Shown here in pieces: positions 10,566 to 63,876 of a DNA stretch of 64,000 bases. Made by a program: the position numbers and the translations under genes. Source of the stretch: Clostridia bacterium (GTDB lineage: Bacteria; Bacillota; Clostridia; Christensenellales; Aristaeellaceae); assembly GCA_017527065.1 (NCBI GenBank), contig JAFXQO010000073.1, positions 1,693-65,692 of the forward strand, read 5' to 3'. The number at the start of each line of letters is the position of its first letter. The first letter of the stretch is position 1. A model generated the notes under the pieces. The model was not told the origin of the DNA and ran no database searches. It saw only the letters and a list, made by a program, of their open reading frames with translations.

Positions 10566-11369
10566 CTACGCCTTGATTCCGAAATAATCCAGCGCCTTCT
10601 CGATGGTCAGGTCCCAGAAGCGCCACTCGTGCCGGTAGCCGTCGATTTCCTCAAACTTCGCTTTCAGGCCGATTTCCTCCGCGTGCGCTTTGAAATGAAG
10701 GAAACCTTCGTAAAGCGGGTCCGCCCTGCCGCAGGCAAAATACAGCTTCGGCAGGTCGACGCCGTTTTTCACGGCCTCGTCCAGCACCCGCCAGGTGTTC
10801 TCATAGGAGGCCAGATAGGCGTCCAGGCCGCCGCGGTTGTCGATGCTCCCCTGCGTCCGCTTGAAGAAGGCCGGATTGACCCGCCTGTCCCACTCAATGT
10901 CCCGGGGCACCTGGGAGAGAGCCGCCGCTCCGGCGAAGAGTTCCGGATGGCTGAAGGCGTACACGCAGGCGCCGCGCCCGCCCATGGAGAGGCCGGCGAT
11001 GTAGTTGTCTTCCCGGCGCGGGGAGAGCGGGAGCCAGTTGTGCGCCAGGGGCATGAGCTCCTCCGTCAGGTAGTCGTACATATTATAGCCGATGCTGAAG
11101 CGCTCCCAGTTCGCGTAGTTGGAATTCAGGGCCGAGGGCATGACCACGGCCAGGTTCCGCTCGCAGGCATAGAGCTCGATGTTGCTCTTGCGGATCCAGT
11201 CGCTGTGGTCACCAAACGTCCCGTGCAGCAGCCACAGGACCTTATACTTCTTGCCGGAGCCATAAAACTGAGCCGGCGTCATGTCCCGGGGCTTGTCCGG
11301 AAGGATGACGGAAACCGTCGTGTTTCCCTGCAGGTATTCGCTCTGGAAATCAAACTGCATGTATGCCAT
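10566..11369 (-). CDS. alpha/beta-hydrolase esterase (putative esterase / EstA-like)
   Basis: 267 aa. WLLHG oxyanion-type segment and the nucleophile elbow GLSMGG. Confidence 0.75.
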   Translation of the reverse strand: MAYMQFDFQSEYLQGNTTVSVILPDKPRDMTPAQFYGSGKKYKVLWLLHGTFGDHSDWIRKSNIELYACERNLAVVMPSALNSNYANWERFSIGYNMYDYLTEELMPLAHNWLPLSPRREDNYIAGLSMGGRGACVYAFSHPELFAGAAALSQVPRDIEWDRRVNPAFFKRTQGSIDNRGGLDAYLASYENTWRVLDEAVKNGVDLPKLYFACGRADPLYEGFLHFKAHAEEIGLKAKFEEIDGYRHEWRFWDLTIEKALDYFGIKA

Positions 11370-11654
11370 GGGCGCTTCCTCCTTTGTGAGTCAGGTCTGT
11401 CGGGTTCACATACTTCTGAGCCGCCAGGCGCAAAGGCGTCCCCTTGGGCGTCCTGAAAGACGCCGATGATCTTCTGATTGATCGTTTTGGACAGTTCATG
11501 ATTGAGTCCATGTCCCGCGTTCTTCCGCTTCTTTGGCTTCTGTTGTCATTATAGCAGAAGTCGGAGCGTTTTGGAATATAGCGCACGTTTTTTTCGAGCG
11601 GCATAAGCGCGCGACGGCGGCGGGACGCCGCATGGCAAAAACCAATTTTATGAT

Positions 11655-11756
11655 AAAAAGAAAACACCCGCCTGAGCGGATGTTTCCCTATTTGGTGCCT
11701 CCATCCGGATCCGAACCGGAGTCTTCGCCATGAGAGGGCGACGTCTTAGGCCTCTT
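11655..11756. repeat. direct repeat copy A (102 bp) of tRNA-Glu 3' part plus downstream terminator
   Basis: Gap-free hand alignment with 12872-12973 gives 95/102 identical positions. Confidence 0.85.
11693..11756 (-). pseudogene. 5'-truncated tRNA-Glu fragment (D-loop to CCA, 64 nt)
   Basis: The rc reads AGAGGCCTAAGACGTCGCCCTCTCATGGCGAAGACTCCGGTTCGGATCCGGATGGAGGCACCA. The 5' acceptor strand and D-stem are missing. Confidence 0.8.
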
Positions 11757-11780
11757 TCCGTAAAGAAGACCGAAAACTGA

Positions 11781-12017
11781 TTATTGTTCAATATAATTAT
11801 AAGCCACAAGCTGCTTCAGGATATCGTCCTCAGGTATATGCTTCTCATGCAGATGGTTGCTCATTTCCCAGGCTTTTTCCATATCAATAACCCGGTGAAT
11901 CGTTATAGAACCATCTTCATGAGTATATGTCATGGTATTATAACCTTTAAAATGGAAAAAACCACCAACAACCATCTCAAGTTCTTTATCAGTAATCTGT
12001 TTTTTTTCACCAGTCAT
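11781..12017 (-). CDS. double-glycine-leader peptide precursor (bacteriocin-like / GG-motif peptide), 78 aa
   Basis: GAGGAGG lies 6 nt upstream of the ATG at 12015-12017. The leader MTGEKKQITDKELEMVVGG fits the consensus [LI][ST]xxELxx[IV]xGG exactly. The gene is AT-rich (21/60 G+C in 11781-11840, hand count). Confidence 0.7.
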   Translation of the reverse strand: MTGEKKQITDKELEMVVGGFFHFKGYNTMTYTHEDGSITIHRVIDMEKAWEMSNHLHEKHIPEDDILKQLVAYNYIEQ

Positions 12018-12097
12018 AGATAACCTCCTCATAAATGGAAAAGCAGATGATGGTATCCTTCTCCGGACGCCCTGATGCGGGAATCACCTTTTTATCG

Positions 12098-12340
12098 TTA
12101 GGTGATTTTGCGGGACTTTTCGGGATTCGGGTCCGGTACGGGAACCGGGACAGGAACCGGTACGGGAACCGGTACGGGAACCGGGACAGGAACCTCGTTC
12201 CTCTCCATCCTCGCGTCCGGACTGTTACCTTTGACGGCATCTTCCGGCCCGTCGAACAGCGGGTCTGAGGCGTACCTCCTTGTTTCCACTCCGCCCGTTA
12301 CCTTTTCCGTCTGTTCAAGATCCAGCGCTTTTCTCTTCAT
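12098..12340 (-). CDS. GG-motif small peptide precursor with a (Val-Pro)10 repeat core, 80 aa
   Basis: AAGGAGA SD upstream of the ATG at 12338-12340. The N-terminus MKRKALDLEQTEKVTGG is a weaker double-glycine leader match. The core contains (VP)10 followed by DPNPEK. Confidence 0.55.
   Translation of the reverse strand: MKRKALDLEQTEKVTGGVETRRYASDPLFDGPEDAVKGNSPDARMERNEVPVPVPVPVPVPVPVPVPVPDPNPEKSRKIT
12134..12193. repeat. tandem 6/12-nt repeat (CGGTAC GGGAAC CGGGAC AGGAAC ...) encoding (VP)10
   Basis: Ten consecutive hexamers of the form CGGKAC/RGGAAC, read directly from the sequence. Confidence 0.9.
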
Positions 12341-12754
12341 GCTTTCTCCATCTCCTTATGTATTTCTCAAAGACCTTTCGGCCCTTTACTGTTCTGCCAC
12401 ATCAGTTTATACGCGGCTGATCTCCCGGTGGCACCGCGGCGGCCCTTTTTGGGAAGAAGAATATCACATACGGATCCTGACGGTCCTGATACAGCCGCCG
12501 TAAGCGGGATATTGTCAATGCGTGTCCGGCAGGGAAAAACAGAATCCTGTCTTAAGGGTACCTGCACACTTCCATCATACACGACAATCATTGAATCGTC
12601 AACCGGAATTCAACTATGTCTAAGCAAGTCGGATAGAATCTGTGCGAATCTAAGCGACTGATCCGACGATGACGCTCCGGGTATACGCCAAAGCAGAGCA
12701 ATCGAAGCTGCCGGCAGCGGTTTCACAAATTGACGATTACCTTCACTGACGACG

Positions 12755-12790
12755 TTTTGTGCGCGGTTTTGTGCGTAATTTTGTGCGCGA
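12755..12790. repeat. three tandem 12-bp repeats TTTTGTGCG(C/T)(G/A)(G/A)
   Basis: TTTTGTGCGCGG TTTTGTGCGTAA TTTTGTGCGCGA, located inside the island and upstream (minus-strand sense) of the peptide genes. Confidence 0.85.
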
Positions 12791-12870
12791 ATCACCCAGA
12801 GCGGCGAGCCTGCCGCTGGATGGGGCAGACGGCGCGCAGAACCAAAGCGCAACAATTCTTGCAATATGGA

Positions 12871-12899
12871 AAAAAAGAAAACACCCGCCTGAGCGGATG
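12871..12899 (-). terminator. rho-independent terminator of the tRNA-Gln/tRNA-Glu operon
   Basis: The minus-strand RNA reads CAUCCGC-UCAG-GCGGGUG followed by UUUUCUUUUUU. Confidence 0.7.
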
Positions 12900-12973
12900 T
12901 TTCCTTATCTGGCACCTCCATCCGGATTCGAACCGGAGTTTTCGCCGTGAGAGGGCGACGTCTTAGGCCTCTT
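12872..12973. repeat. direct repeat copy B (102 bp), part of the intact tRNA-Glu and its terminator
   Basis: Pairs with 11655-11756 at 95/102 identity. Confidence 0.85.
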
Positions 12974-12985
12974 GACTATGGAGGC
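12910..12985 (-). tRNA. tRNA-Glu (anticodon CUC)
   Basis: The rc reads GCCTCCATAGTCAAGAGGCCTAAGACGTCGCCCTCTCACGGCGAAAACTCCGGTTCGAATCCGGATGGAGGTGCCA. Cloverleaf arms pair, the anticodon loop is CT-CTC-AC, the T-loop is TTCGAAT and CCA is encoded. Confidence 0.9.
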
Positions 12986-12990
12986 ATGAT

Positions 12991-13064
12991 TGGCTGCCGA
13001 ACTAGGATTCGAACCTAGAATGAACGAGTCAGAGTCGTTAGTGTTACCGTTACACCATTCGGCA
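12991..13064 (-). tRNA. tRNA-Gln (anticodon CUG)
   Basis: The rc reads TGCCGAATGGTGTAACGGTAACACTAACGACTCTGACTCGTTCATTCTAGGTTCGAATCCTAGTTCGGCAGCCA. The acceptor stem TGCCGAA/TTCGGCA pairs and the anticodon loop is CT-CTG-AC. Confidence 0.9.
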
Positions 13065-13102: not shown

Positions 13103-13131
13103 ATTATACGGTCGGCGCGGCGATTTGTCAA
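13103..13131 (-). promoter_or_regulatory. consensus sigma-70 promoter for the tRNA operon (TTGACA, 17 nt spacer, TATAAT)
   Basis: The rc of 13126-13131 is TTGACA and the rc of 13103-13108 is TATAAT, about 35 nt upstream of tRNA-Gln. Confidence 0.7.
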
Positions 13132-14828: not shown

Positions 14829-15040
14829 TCTCATTTAAAGTGTCATTCACAAATAGGCGTATGACGAGGATGACCCTTCAGGCGCTGCGCGCCAGCTCCC
14901 CTGAAAGGGGAGCCAAGAAGAACGCCCCAATAGGAACGATCTTGCTTCCCCTATCAGGGGAAGTGCCGAGCGCAGCGAGGCAATAGGGTCGTTCTCCAAT
15001 ACGTCTACATCCAATTTGTTGAACGAGTCGTTAAATGACG
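14829..15040. repeat. ~210-bp nested-palindrome (MITE/REP-like) element, copy 1
   Basis: Outer inverted arms are TCATTTAA.../...TTAAATGA. Inner arms are GACCCTTCAGGC...GCTCCCCTGAAAGGGGAGC and CCCCTATCAGGGGAAGTGCCGAGCGCAGCGAGGC...AGGGTC. The same core recurs at 63669-63876. Confidence 0.75.
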
Positions 15041-15099: not shown

Positions 15100-15358
15100 A
15101 GTTTCATAACAGGCAGAGACGGAGAAGAGTACCCCGCAAGGCGGCCCTCGAGAGAACGCGCGCCATCGGCTGGAAGCGCGCGGGGCAGGCGGCGGGCGAA
15201 GTTCGCTCCCGAGCTCCCGCGCTGAAAGGATCAGTAGGCGCGGGCGGTCCCGTTCCCCGATAGCGGAACGAAAGGCCCGCGCGCAGAGCGCGCGGACGAA
15301 AACGGGTGGTACCGCGAGTAGATTCAGCTCGCCCCTTTGGGGCGGGCTTATATTTTTC
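15100..15358 (+). promoter_or_regulatory. T-box leader riboswitch (Phe), with terminator/antiterminator
   Basis: Conserved T-box sequence AAACGGGTGGTACCGCG at ~15299-15316. AGAGA and AGTA elements in stem I. Candidate specifier TTC at 15202-15204 (GAAGTTCGCT). Terminator GCTCGCCCC-TTTG-GGGCGGGC plus TTATATTTTT at 15327-15358. Located upstream of pheS. Confidence 0.85.
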
Positions 15359-63668: not shown

Positions 63669-63876
63669 CAATGTCATCAACTTAAGCCATATGTAACTGC
63701 GAAGCGTGGCATTGGCAGACCCTTCAGGCAGCTTCGCTGCCAGCTCCCCTGAAAGGGGAGCCAAGATTCGCTCGTGTCTCGCCTCCCCTTTCAGGGGAGG
63801 TGCCGAGCGCAGCGAGGCGGAAGGGTCCGTTCCCGTTGCGGTGTATTGACATACATTCCTTGAGTTTATGACATTG
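63669..63876. repeat. ~208-bp nested-palindrome (MITE/REP-like) element, copy 2
   Basis: Terminal inverted repeats are CAATGTCATCAACTTAAG (63669-63686) and CTTGAGTTTATGACATTG (63859-63876). The core GACCCTTCAGGC...GCTCCCCTGAAAGGGGAGCCAAG...CCCCTTTCAGGGGAGGTGCCGAGCGCAGCGAGGC matches 14829-15040. Confidence 0.8.

What the first reader, a model, noticed from the sequence alone, without database searches (positions are those of the whole stretch)
11655..12985. AT-rich 1.1-kb micro-island behind tRNA-Glu, bounded by 102-bp direct repeats and lacking any recombinase
Seen in sequence:
- 11655-11756 and 12872-12973 align without gaps at 95/102 positions (hand alignment).
- Each copy holds the last 64 nt of tRNA-Glu(CUC), from the D-loop AGAGGCC to CCA, plus about 38 nt containing the downstream terminator hairpin.
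- Copy B belongs to an intact 76-nt tRNA. Copy A lacks the 5' acceptor and D stem, so it is a stranded fragment.
- The intervening DNA begins with a gene of about 35% G+C (21/60 in 11781-11840), against more than 60% in the flanks.
- It encodes only two small double-glycine-motif peptides plus about 500 bp with no convincing ORF.

Established knowledge: duplicated tRNA 3' ends are the attL/attR scars of tyrosine-integrase islands.

Inference: this is a decayed, or helper-dependent, cargo-only integrative element. It is unusual because the repeat runs past CCA through the terminator and no integrase, transporter or immunity gene accompanies the cargo.
Basis: partly seen in the sequence, partly recalled or inferred. 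Interest (0 to 1): 0.75.

Follow-up and report, generated by a model that had tools for sequence, protein, structure and literature searches.

The report
Truncated tRNA-Glu repeat beside mosaic peptide locus
A real 105-bp repeat of the tRNA-Glu 3' end brackets two small secreted-peptide genes. It looks like an old, eroded integration scar inside a patchwork, strain-variable locus rather than an intact mobile mini-island, so it is instructive but fairly ordinary.

Summary

- **Proximal part is resident.** A strain of the same species (L110) has an identical backbone from IMPDH through tRNA-Glu to about 12400. It then carries a different peptide allele and a truncated ATPase, with only one tRNA-Glu copy in 3.4 kb.
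- **Flank conserved elsewhere.** Another organism (L104) keeps the 175 bp next to tRNA-Glu at 88%, followed by ordinary genes.
- **Only 299 bp is AT-rich.** This stretch (11757-12055) is an orphan 78-aa gene. Two tested relatives sit directly upstream of radical-SAM genes.
- **Two exchangeable modules.** This cassette and the 380-bp PV-peptide module recur elsewhere with the same sharp ends.
- **Nothing else found.** I found no integrase, no empty site and no parent element.

My best reading is an eroded integration scar (a CIME-like remnant) whose interior became a recombining peptide locus. The distal fragment now supplies the operon terminator. The origin is inferred, not shown. Interest is low to moderate.

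The parts
13103..13131 (-). Promoter-like site of the tRNA-Gln/tRNA-Glu operon (TTGACA-17-TATAAT, 12/12)
12991..13064 (-). tRNA-Gln(CUG), intact
12910..12985 (-). tRNA-Glu(CUC), intact. Acceptor pair G1.U72, discriminator G73.
12869..12973 (.). Direct repeat copy B: tRNA-Glu positions 13-76 plus a 41-nt trailer with the terminator hairpin (12875-12906)
12694..12868 (-). Flank of tRNA-Glu, 175 bp. It is conserved at 88% beside tRNA-Glu in another organism (L104) and identical in the alternative-allele strain L110. It holds three tandem 12-bp repeats GTTTTGTGCGCG at 12754-12789.
12436..12693 (-). Non-coding spacer of the resident backbone, identical in L110. It holds a promoter-like site TTGACG-17-TATGAT at 12574-12602.
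12056..12435 (-). PV-peptide module. The ORF at 12098-12340 encodes 80 aa: the leader MKRKALDLEQTEKVTGG followed by a (PV)n repeat. The module is allelic between strains (68-aa allele in L110) and occurs in an unrelated context (L105). In all three contexts it ends at ...GGCGTCCGGAGAAGGAT, which is the 5' half of its own terminator.
11757..12055 (-). AT-rich (36% G+C) cassette. The ORF at 11781-12017 encodes 78 aa: the leader ...KELEMVVGG followed by a 59-aa beta3-alpha2 domain. It is an orphan copy of a family found next to radical-SAM genes. The same cassette ends (ACCATCATC... and ...TTTACGGAA) occur in other contexts (L017-L021).
11652..11756 (.). Direct repeat copy A: a 5'-truncated tRNA-Glu fragment (11693-11756; carries G58, C72, A73) plus the terminator hairpin (11658-11689). 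It now lies at the 3' end of the two-peptide transcription unit.
11561..11651 (.). Allele-specific 91 bp between copy A and the shared esterase backbone. A strain with an identical esterase (L015) has unrelated AT-rich DNA from 11561 onward.
10566..11369 (-). Esterase gene (PF00756), part of the right-hand backbone

Best explanation
The repeat is a pair of scars from an old site-specific (Campbell-type) insertion into the 3' end of tRNA-Glu(CUC). Copy B completes the working tRNA. Copy A is the displaced 3' end together with its terminator.

The inserted element has eroded completely. It has no recombinase and shows no sign of present mobility. Its interior has become resident DNA that now evolves as a patchwork small-peptide locus. 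Two single-gene modules of about 300-380 bp are swapped in and out by recombination at short conserved or illegitimate junctions:
- the PV-repeat GG-peptide module;
- an AT-rich 78-aa GG-peptide gene, orphaned from a radical-SAM RiPP-type cluster.

**Shown.** The anatomy, the mosaic structure, the variation between strains and the absence of a recombinase.

**Inferred from sequence.** A promoter-like site at 12602-12574 drives a two-peptide transcript. The 78-aa cassette sits inside the PV gene's own terminator loop. Transcription therefore runs on to the terminator carried by the tRNA fragment. That terminator is the fragment's only likely present function.

**Inferred.** The integrase origin of the repeat.
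For: **Repeat hallmark.** A 5'-truncated tRNA 3' end lies in direct repeat with sharp borders on both sides.

**Divergence.** The copies differ by 8/105 although strains are 99.9-100% identical. In the unconstrained trailer, copy A, copy B and the L104 orthologue are about equally distant, at 2-3 differences in 42 nt. Copy A is therefore old, or came from another lineage. It is not a fresh duplication.

**Pattern of defects.** The differences fit an attL/attR exchange near ATCCGGAT:
- copy A has G58, where A58 is near-universal in tRNAs, upstream of that point;
- copy A keeps C72/A73, which pair with G1, downstream of it;
- the working tRNA has G1.U72.

**Erosion and residency.**
- No integrase or transfer gene lies between the repeats, or among the called genes about 10 kb either side.
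- 12436-12871 is invariant in strain L110, whose distal content differs.
- 175 bp of it is conserved in L104.

**Mosaic modules.**
- The 78-aa cassette is 88-91% identical in L017-L021, and the homology ends exactly at 11756/11757.
- The PV module recurs in L105 and L110 with a common end ...GGAGAAGGAT, followed by three different sequences.
- L105 shows that this end is half of a terminator hairpin.

**Orphan cargo.** Family members P0008 and P0009 lie directly upstream of radical-SAM genes. P0009 also follows a PqqD-domain gene and a 45-aa peptide.

**Known category.** Elements that keep att sites but have lost all recombination and transfer genes are described as CIMEs. They are 1.2-13 kb, with micro-forms of 130-220 bp, and are common (PMC5704250, PMC7563491).
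Against: - No empty site, excised circle or related element carrying an integrase was found in any collection.
- The DNA directly after copy B should be element DNA under this model. Instead it sits beside tRNA-Glu in another organism, followed by histidine phosphatase, PP-loop ATPase and ADP-ribosylglycohydrolase genes. That organism shares a dispersed REP-like repeat with the window, so it is probably a relative. Either that organism carries the same ancient insertion, or the flank is native and the model is wrong.
- L104 also has T72/G73, so G1.U72 may simply be a trait of the lineage.
- The left border of the repeat coincides exactly with the end of the 78-aa cassette. An insertion that truncated an existing sequence would explain this more simply.
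- The crossover argument rests on 8 variable sites.
Confidence: 0.42

Rival explanations
1. No integrase was ever involved. When the foreign 78-aa cassette was captured, it became joined to a partial copy of tRNA-Glu plus its terminator. The capture may have been by homology-facilitated illegitimate recombination, or by Campbell insertion of a small circle through RecA using tRNA/terminator homology. The partial copy was either duplicated locally long ago or imported from a related donor. The repeats are a by-product and have no recombination function.
For: - Cassette homology to L017 and L021 stops exactly at the repeat border 11756/11757.
- The strain-variable block 12055-11561 holds the cassette, copy A and 91 bp together.
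- The proximal 436 bp behaves as native backbone.
- The repeat unit includes the whole terminator. Homology-driven events would capture this naturally, whereas an att core has no need for it.
- Other junctions in this locus are clearly illegitimate. Three different sequences follow ...GGAGAAGGAT, and L110 has a 5'-truncated ATPase there.
Against: - The 8% divergence between copies is hard to square with a local duplication at the time of a recent capture.
- Import only moves the question to the donor, where a truncated tRNA next to foreign DNA again suggests an att scar.
- From my general knowledge, partial tRNA repeats downstream of the intact gene are overwhelmingly integrase products.
Confidence: 0.27
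2. One reading: an intact cis- or trans-mobilisable cargo-only element (CIME). Its attL and attR still work, and it is moved by an integrase encoded elsewhere.
For: - Both repeat copies are well preserved, at 92%.
- Three tandem 12-bp repeats lie 80-115 bp from the core, where arm-type integrase sites would be expected.
- Contig L006 carries a block that is 100% identical from 12965 to 11703 (1263 nt). It is flanked by a different tRNA-Gln, a different tRNA-Glu 5' half and a different right flank. Both break points fall inside the tRNA-derived repeats, and the right one falls at the inferred crossover ATCCGGAT.
Against: - L006 is a 1.5-kb metagenome contig and may be chimeric at the conserved tRNA.
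- Its right flank (TGAGGACACAC...) cannot complete a tRNA acceptor stem, so it is not a clean insertion into an intact tRNA.
- The 12-bp repeats are also present, in two copies, in L104 upstream of an ordinary gene.
- Presence/absence variation between strains does not follow the repeat borders.
- No empty site or helper element was found.
Confidence: 0.13
3. Copy A is the remnant of a second, once complete tRNA-Glu gene from an old tandem duplication of tRNA plus terminator. Arrival of the 78-aa cassette cut off its 5' part.
For: - The repeat unit is exactly a gene's 3' part plus its terminator.
- The truncation point coincides with the cassette end.
- Copy A shows changes typical of a pseudogene, such as G58.
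Against: - No relative with two tRNA-Glu genes was seen. L104 has none in 2.9 kb and L110 none in 3.4 kb.
- No homology remains between the sequences downstream of the two terminators.
- C72/A73 in copy A against T72/G73 in copy B would need two adjacent changes in an identity region of one of two functional duplicates.
Confidence: 0.1

Closest known systems
CIMEs (cis-mobilisable elements): decayed ICE/IME remnants that keep attL/attR but have lost integration and transfer genes. Examples lie at tRNA-Lys in Streptococcus agalactiae and at rpsI, rpmG and fda in S. salivarius (PMC5704250, PMC7563491).
   Same: - Direct repeats that hold the 3' end of the target gene.
- No recombinase or transfer gene.
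- Small size: 1.2 kb is at the lower bound of 'classical' CIMEs.
- A few cargo genes.
- The decayed copy lies distal to the target gene.
   Different: - No related ICE or IME is known, and none lies in tandem.
- The part next to the tRNA is shared with a strain and with another organism that lack the distal copy.
- Variation between strains does not follow the att borders.
- The repeat runs 41 nt past CCA through the terminator.
- Activity of the att sites is untested.
tRNA-targeting genomic islands and prophages with tyrosine integrases. Sublocation classes of integration within tRNA genes are as described by Williams 2002 (from my own knowledge, not checked here).
   Same: - An intact tRNA is regenerated at one end and a truncated 3' fragment lies at the other.
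- The repeat copies are not identical, as expected from attP/attB divergence.
- The inferred exchange point lies at the 3' side of the T-arm.
   Different: - No integrase, excisionase or any phage or ICE gene is present.
- No compositional signal exists outside 299 bp.
- No empty site was found.
Variable bacteriocin or RiPP precursor loci with double-glycine leaders, exported by C39-peptidase ABC transporters (PCATs)
   Same: - Both ORFs have a GG motif at residue 17-19, preceded by an acidic/hydrophobic pattern.
- The 78-aa leader matches the consensus positions: I-12, E-8, L-7, V-4, GG.
- Allelic and modular exchange between strains.
   Different: - Profile scores are below threshold (TIGR01847: 13.1 bits against a cut-off of 15.7).
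- No PCAT, immunity gene or maturase appears in the neighbourhood.
- The predicted mature parts are hydrophilic (a folded 59-aa domain and a PV-repeat), unlike typical class II bacteriocins.

Membership tests
tRNA-integrating element (tyrosine-integrase island or prophage) | Direct repeats made of the 3' part of the target tRNA, with an intact tRNA at one end | tested here: met
   Repeat of 105 nt at 92%. Copy B lies in the intact tRNA-Glu and copy A is 5'-truncated.
tRNA-integrating element (tyrosine-integrase island or prophage) | Integrase gene, or a recognisable pseudogene, inside the element, usually next to the tRNA | tested here: not met
   No ORF in 11757-12871 has any recombinase hit at E<=1. 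The called genes about 10 kb either side include no integrase.
tRNA-integrating element (tyrosine-integrase island or prophage) | Presence/absence polymorphism whose borders are the repeats (an empty attB in relatives) | tested here: not met
   Alternative alleles L110 and L015 break at about 12435 or 12055 and at 11560, not at the repeats. No empty site was seen in any contig or collection.
tRNA-integrating element (tyrosine-integrase island or prophage) | The whole inter-repeat DNA is foreign (composition, absence from relatives) | tested here: not met
   Only 11757-12055 is atypical, at 36% G+C. The stretch 12694-12868 is conserved beside tRNA-Glu in L104.
CIME (cis-mobilisable element) | Retains attL and attR | tested here: inconclusive
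   Repeats with att-like anatomy are present. Whether they are recombination-competent cannot be judged from sequence.
CIME (cis-mobilisable element) | Devoid of recombination, conjugation and mobilisation genes | tested here: met
   Only two small peptide ORFs are present.
CIME (cis-mobilisable element) | Derives by deletion from an ICE or IME (sequence relationship to one, or tandem accretion with one) | tested here: not met
   No similarity in the phage or plasmid collections beyond a low-complexity repeat. No hits of core or arm patterns in viral contigs. The 24 hits matched only the search pattern itself and look like chance. No ICE or IME lies in tandem in the window.
CIME (cis-mobilisable element) | Excises or transfers when a helper element integrates next to it | not testable with these tools
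   This needs read-level junction searches or an experiment. The only hint is contig L006, which may be chimeric.
Double-glycine-leader peptides exported by PCAT transporters | Leader matching the GG-leader profile | tested here: inconclusive
   78-aa peptide: TIGR01847 scores 13.1 bits against a cut-off of 15.7 at residues 6-19. Relative P0004: CTB-family leader scores 18.1 against 32. The 80-aa peptide has no leader hit. The motif xLExVVGG is invariant across the family.
Double-glycine-leader peptides exported by PCAT transporters | Cognate C39-peptidase ABC exporter and immunity gene in the locus | tested here: not met
   Not among the called genes about 10 kb either side, nor among the large window ORFs tested.
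Radical-SAM RiPP cluster component (78-aa family) | Gene adjacent to a radical-SAM maturase, a PqqD-like recognition protein or both | tested here: not met
   This holds for relatives P0009 (PqqD gene, 45-aa peptide, the 79-aa gene, then radical SAM) and P0008 (radical SAM directly downstream). It does not hold in the window, L017 or L021, where the gene is an orphan.
Tandem tRNA gene duplication with a decayed second copy | Relatives carry two complete tRNA-Glu genes at this locus | tested here: not met
   L104 and L110 each show one tRNA-Glu. Genome relatives found through IMPDH have no tRNAs at the locus at all. Sampling is thin.

The most novel reading that the evidence does not exclude
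Single-peptide 'micro-cassettes' of 300-400 bp (one GG-leader ORF with its ribosome-binding site and a few dozen flanking bases) may be units of exchange in rumen Clostridia. Under this reading they land in or beside intrinsic-terminator hairpins and generate or exploit long direct repeats that contain the terminator.

The sequence evidence that prompts this:
- In the window, the 78-aa cassette sits in the loop of the PV gene's terminator and is followed by the 105-bp repeat of tRNA fragment plus terminator.
- In L017, the same cassette is bracketed by two 66-bp copies of a terminator-like palindrome.
- Both modules have identical ends in three or more unrelated contexts.

This would imply an undescribed trans-acting or structure-directed cassette-capture mechanism, rather than an ordinary integrase scar plus random illegitimate recombination.
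Probability: 0.08. Interest if true: 0.6.

Novelty: new member of a known kind. Interest (0 to 1): 0.28.

Why it matters
If the best reading is right, this is one more decayed integration scar at a tRNA gene, a common and well described class (CIMEs and island remnants). Its value is mainly as a caution. A textbook attL/attR-looking repeat does not delimit the unit that actually varies between strains.

Comparison with alternative alleles shows that the mobile currency here is much smaller, at 300-380-bp single-gene modules. The tRNA fragment has been co-opted as a transcription terminator.

Two side products may be more useful than the island itself:
- an uncharacterised family of about 78-aa proteins with an invariant GG-type leader and a folded beta3-alpha2 domain, whose tested members sit next to radical-SAM genes;
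- evidence that orphan copies of such genes spread as tiny cassettes between high-GC and low-GC rumen Firmicutes.

Tried and rejected
**Searches for the element elsewhere.**
- A 34-mer specific to copy A (with its three diagnostic substitutions) had no hit in species-representative genomes, IMG/VR or JGI metagenomes.
- A degenerate pattern covering the 3' end and terminator gave one JGI hit, L104. It proved informative as a flank homologue, not as an empty site. The same pattern had no viral hit.
- The cassette-tail and terminator/arm patterns had no hit in viral contigs.
- The 12-bp arm-repeat pattern gave 24 viral hits. All matched only the pattern itself, so I treat them as chance.
- BLASTN of 11757-12871 against the phage and plasmid collections matched only the low-complexity PV repeat.

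**Searches for synteny and empty sites.**
- An IMPDH-anchored search of genomes found the closest relative at 90% amino-acid identity (RUG13560). The rest were at 74% or less, mostly Christensenellaceae or Christensenellales MAGs. None has tRNAs next to IMPDH, so this route gives no empty site.
- Exact-protein look-ups of the esterase, IMPDH and AP-endonuclease-family genes returned only the window arrangement, plus the variants L015 and L110.
- I tried to extend L015 through its partial neighbouring ORF. This found only a 931-bp JGI contig with no useful context.

**Checks inside the window.**
- Rfam matched nothing in the 530-bp non-coding stretch.
- Pfam matched none of its ORFs.
- The large window ORFs I tested included no C39/ABC exporter. 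Several of them were probably wrong-strand ORFs.
- I looked for residual homology beyond the repeat ends and found none.

**Other.**
- A fold search of the AlphaFold model of the 78-aa protein against the PDB found nothing at E<=0.001.
- I first read copy B's 3' end and the adjacent 175 bp as clearly element-derived. I dropped that reading after L104 and L110.
- I considered integron-like attC cassettes for the peptide modules and rejected the idea. The cassette 3' ends carry no palindromic site. From my own knowledge, integrons are not known in Firmicutes; I did not test this.
Full report
**1. The observation**

- The repeat finder reports 11652-11756 against 12869-12973: 105 nt at 92%, ungapped.
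- ARAGORN and Rfam agree on an intact tRNA-Glu(CUC) at 12910-12985(-) and tRNA-Gln(CUG) at 12991-13064(-).
- A perfect TTGACA-17-TATAAT promoter lies at 13131-13103.
- The repeat covers tRNA positions from the D-loop to CCA (64 nt) plus 41 nt of trailer. Both trailers hold an intact 14-bp terminator hairpin and a T-run.
- Copy A lacks the 5' acceptor strand and the D stem. ARAGORN's 78-nt 'tRNA' at 11693-11770 borrows unrelated upstream bases. Rfam does not support it at E<=1, and folding does not either.
- Similarity stops abruptly at both ends of the repeat.
- Contigs from several samples and assemblers span both copies at 99.9-100% identity, so this is not an assembly artefact.

One correction is needed. 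Only 11757-12055 is AT-rich, at 36% G+C. The remaining 813 bp between the repeats is 50-56%, against 61-65% in the flanks.

**2. What lies between the repeats**

In the tRNA's orientation (the window's minus strand), the order is as follows.

(a) 12868-12694, 175 bp. This holds three tandem 12-bp repeats, GTTTTGTGCGCG as read on the plus strand.

(b) 12693-12436, non-coding. This holds a promoter-like TTGACG-17-TATGAT at 12602-12574.

(c) 12435-12056, the 'PV module'. Its 80-aa ORF encodes MKRKALDLEQTEKVTGG followed by a (PV)n repeat.

(d) 12055-11757, the AT-rich cassette. Its 78-aa ORF has a strong GGAGG ribosome-binding site and the leader ...ITDKELEMVVGG.

(e) Copy A.

No ORF in (a) or (b) matches Pfam, and Rfam finds nothing there. 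The called genes about 10 kb either side are PheST, IMPDH, an esterase, sugar-metabolism genes and ABC-importer genes. None is an integrase, a C39 exporter or a maturase.

**3. Related sequences change the picture**

*L110.* This contig has an IMPDH identical in protein sequence, so it is the same species. It is identical to the window from 14923 down to about 12400, apart from one base. That span includes both tRNAs and segments (a) and (b). L110 then carries a different PV allele of 68 aa. Directly after ...GGCGTCCGGAGAAGGAT comes a 5'-truncated AAA_14/DUF4143 ATPase gene in place of the 78-aa cassette. Only one tRNA-Glu copy is present in its 3.4 kb.

*L104.* This JGI metagenome contig ends inside a tRNA-Glu. 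It continues through the same terminator and a homologue of segment (a), at 88% over 266 nt and with two of the 12-bp repeats. It then runs into histidine-phosphatase, PP-loop ATPase and ADP-ribosylglycohydrolase genes, with no second tRNA fragment in 2.9 kb. That organism shares a dispersed REP-like repeat with the window, so it is probably a relative.

*L015.* Its esterase is identical in protein sequence. It matches the window only up to 11560 and then has unrelated AT-rich DNA.

Together these show that the segment varying between strains runs from about 12435 or 12055 to 11561. It does not run from repeat to repeat, and the 436 bp next to the intact tRNA behaves as resident backbone.

**4. 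The two peptide genes are separate modules**

*The 78-aa cassette.* It recurs at 88-91% nucleotide identity in L017-L021, in different surroundings. The homology ends exactly at the repeat border...TTTACGGAA, then AGAGGCC in the window but GGTTGGAACCCC in L017 and L021. In L021 it begins at the same left end, ACCATCATC.

*The PV module.* It recurs in L105 at 82%, downstream of unrelated genes. There the sequence after the gene forms a complete terminator, GGCGTCCGGA...TCCGGATGCC followed by TTTCTT. In the window and in L110 only the 5' half of that hairpin remains. Three different sequences follow ...GGAGAAGGAT.

The 78-aa cassette therefore sits inside the PV gene's terminator loop. The next terminator downstream is the one carried by copy A. 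A two-gene transcript that ends in the tRNA fragment's terminator is the likely consequence. This is an inference.

**5. The cargo**

A profile search of 1.84 billion representative proteins finds 70 clusters related to the 78-aa protein.
- About 35 are 73-88-aa proteins with the same xLExVVGG leader and a conserved core, roughly [ILM]TYTHxDG...KAWExSN...IPEDDIL...GYI.
- The core also occurs at the C-terminus of large surface-type proteins that carry MBG_2 or Big_2 domains.
- AlphaFold gives a beta3-alpha2 domain with mean pLDDT 79.6, and no PDB neighbour was found.
- GG-leader profiles match in the right place but below threshold.

For the members whose context could be read:
- P0009 lies between a PqqD-domain gene plus a 45-aa peptide (MLEKYETPEVEFVEMEEED...) and a radical-SAM gene.
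- P0008 is followed directly by a radical-SAM gene.
- P0004 follows the same kind of small peptide.

The window copy, like those in L017 and L021, is an orphan cut off 24 nt after its stop codon. The locus is therefore not a self-contained bacteriocin system.

**6. Origin of the repeat**

*For an integration scar.*
- A 5'-truncated tRNA 3' end repeated downstream of the intact gene is the standard product of site-specific integration. This is my general knowledge of tRNA-targeting islands.
- The copies differ at 8 sites although strains are almost identical.
- In the unconstrained trailer, copy A, copy B and L104 are about equidistant. Copy A is therefore old or foreign, not a fresh duplication.
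- The differences are distributed as an exchange near ATCCGGAT would predict. Copy A has the non-functional G58 upstream of that point, but C72/A73, which pair with G1, downstream. The working tRNA has G1.U72.

*Against it.*
- The DNA after copy B should be element DNA, yet it is conserved beside tRNA-Glu in L104 and is invariant in L110.
- L104 also has T72/G73.
- No empty site, circle junction, integrase remnant or parent element was found anywhere.
- The repeat's left border coincides with the cassette end. A truncating insertion or an illegitimate join would explain that directly.

*Weights.* I give about 0.42 to an old, eroded integration scar whose interior became a resident, recombining peptide locus. 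I give about 0.27 to a non-integrase origin (illegitimate or homology-driven capture), about 0.13 to a still-mobilisable CIME, and about 0.10 to a decayed tandem tRNA gene.

**7. The one hint of present mobility**

Contig L006 (1.5 kb) is 100% identical to the window from 12965 to 11703. Its flanks differ:
- a diverged tRNA-Gln (about a dozen differences);
- a different tRNA-Glu 5' half (D-loop AAGCGGTTAAGAC);
- a low-GC promoter region;
- an unrelated AT-rich right flank that starts just after ...ATCCGGAT in copy A.

Both break points fall inside the tRNA-derived repeats. This is what att-site or tRNA-homology recombination would give. However, the right flank cannot complete an acceptor stem, the contig is short, and a conserved tRNA is a typical site of metagenome chimeras. 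I leave it unresolved.

**8. Comparison with known systems, and verdict**

The closest described category is the CIME, an ICE or IME remnant that keeps its att sites but has lost all recombination and transfer genes. CIMEs are reported at 1.2-13 kb, with micro-forms of 130-220 bp, and in the hundreds at a single tRNA-Lys locus (PMC5704250, PMC7563491).

The present locus has that anatomy but fails the tests that would make it a member:
- no relationship to any ICE or IME;
- no tandem partner;
- no repeat-bounded presence/absence polymorphism.

As it stands, this is an ordinary scar embedded in a small, interesting mosaic. The most novel reading that the evidence does not exclude is a dedicated terminator-associated micro-cassette mechanism for GG-leader peptide genes. 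I give it about 8%.

Noticed in passing
window 11781-12017(-); relatives P0008-P0076; loci L137, L142, L143, L022: The 78-aa protein belongs to an uncharacterised family with no Pfam or NCBIfam model. About 35 representative clusters are 73-88-aa proteins with an invariant xLExVVGG leader and a predicted beta3-alpha2 domain. Two tested members lie directly upstream of radical-SAM genes, and two follow a 39-45-aa peptide that begins MLEKYETPEVEFVEMEEED. The domain also ends large MBG_2 or Big_2 surface proteins.
   Followed up: partly
window 12098-12340(-); L110:642-848; L105:783-1025: This is a GG-motif peptide with a (PV)n repeat whose length varies between alleles (80 aa against 68 aa). Conserved boxes flank it: CCGGGAGATCAGCCGCGTATAAACTGATG upstream and GGCGTCCGGAGAAGGAT downstream. 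Alleles appear to be exchanged at these boxes. Only one homologous cluster was found among 5.8 billion proteins.
   Followed up: partly
window 12754-12789: Three exact TTTTGTGCG units lie at 12-bp spacing, with only one other exact copy in the 64 kb. Two units are conserved at the same place in L104. They could be an operator or arm-type protein-binding sites.
   Followed up: partly
window 14872-14994 and 63718-63832; L104:1065-1108: This is a dispersed REP-like element of about 120 bp made of nested palindromes (...GGCAGCTTCGCTGCCAGCTCCCCTGAAAGGGGAGCC...CCCCTTTCAGGGGAGGTGCCGAGCGCAGCGAGGC...). It occurs twice in the window, and part of it occurs in the L104 organism.
   Followed up: partly
window 15107-15339(+): A T-box leader lies upstream of pheS. 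It scores 90.2 bits, just under Rfam's gathering score of 93.
   Followed up: no
L017:1-112 and 2863-2974; L017:152-217 and 625-690: The 3-kb contig that carries a 93-aa relative of the cassette has perfect 112-nt inverted repeats at its ends. These may be inverted IS copies or an assembly fold-back. The cassette there is bracketed by two 66-nt copies (82% identical) of a terminator-like palindrome, GGAACCCC...AAAAAATGCCG...CGGCATTTTTCGGGGGTTCCC. DUF3990 and DUF3791 genes lie next to it.
   Followed up: partly
L006 (ERZ28654223, 1529 bp): A block 100% identical to window 12965-11703 is joined to a different tRNA-Gln/tRNA-Glu 5' half and to an unrelated right flank. This is either very recent transfer into another host or a chimeric contig.
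   Followed up: partly
L015:1-167 (upstream of an esterase identical to the window's); L103: An alternative allele replaces window 11561 and upstream sequence with AT-rich DNA. That DNA encodes a small protein (MTIEIEAPKLRKKYYLYAWSDAG...). Its only relative lies next to a highly acidic 243-aa ORF in a JGI contig.
   Followed up: partly
window 11693-11770(-): ARAGORN reports the truncated fragment as a 78-nt tRNA-Glu with its anticodon at position 37. Rfam's tRNA model does not support this, so automated annotation would probably list a spurious second tRNA-Glu here.
   Followed up: yes
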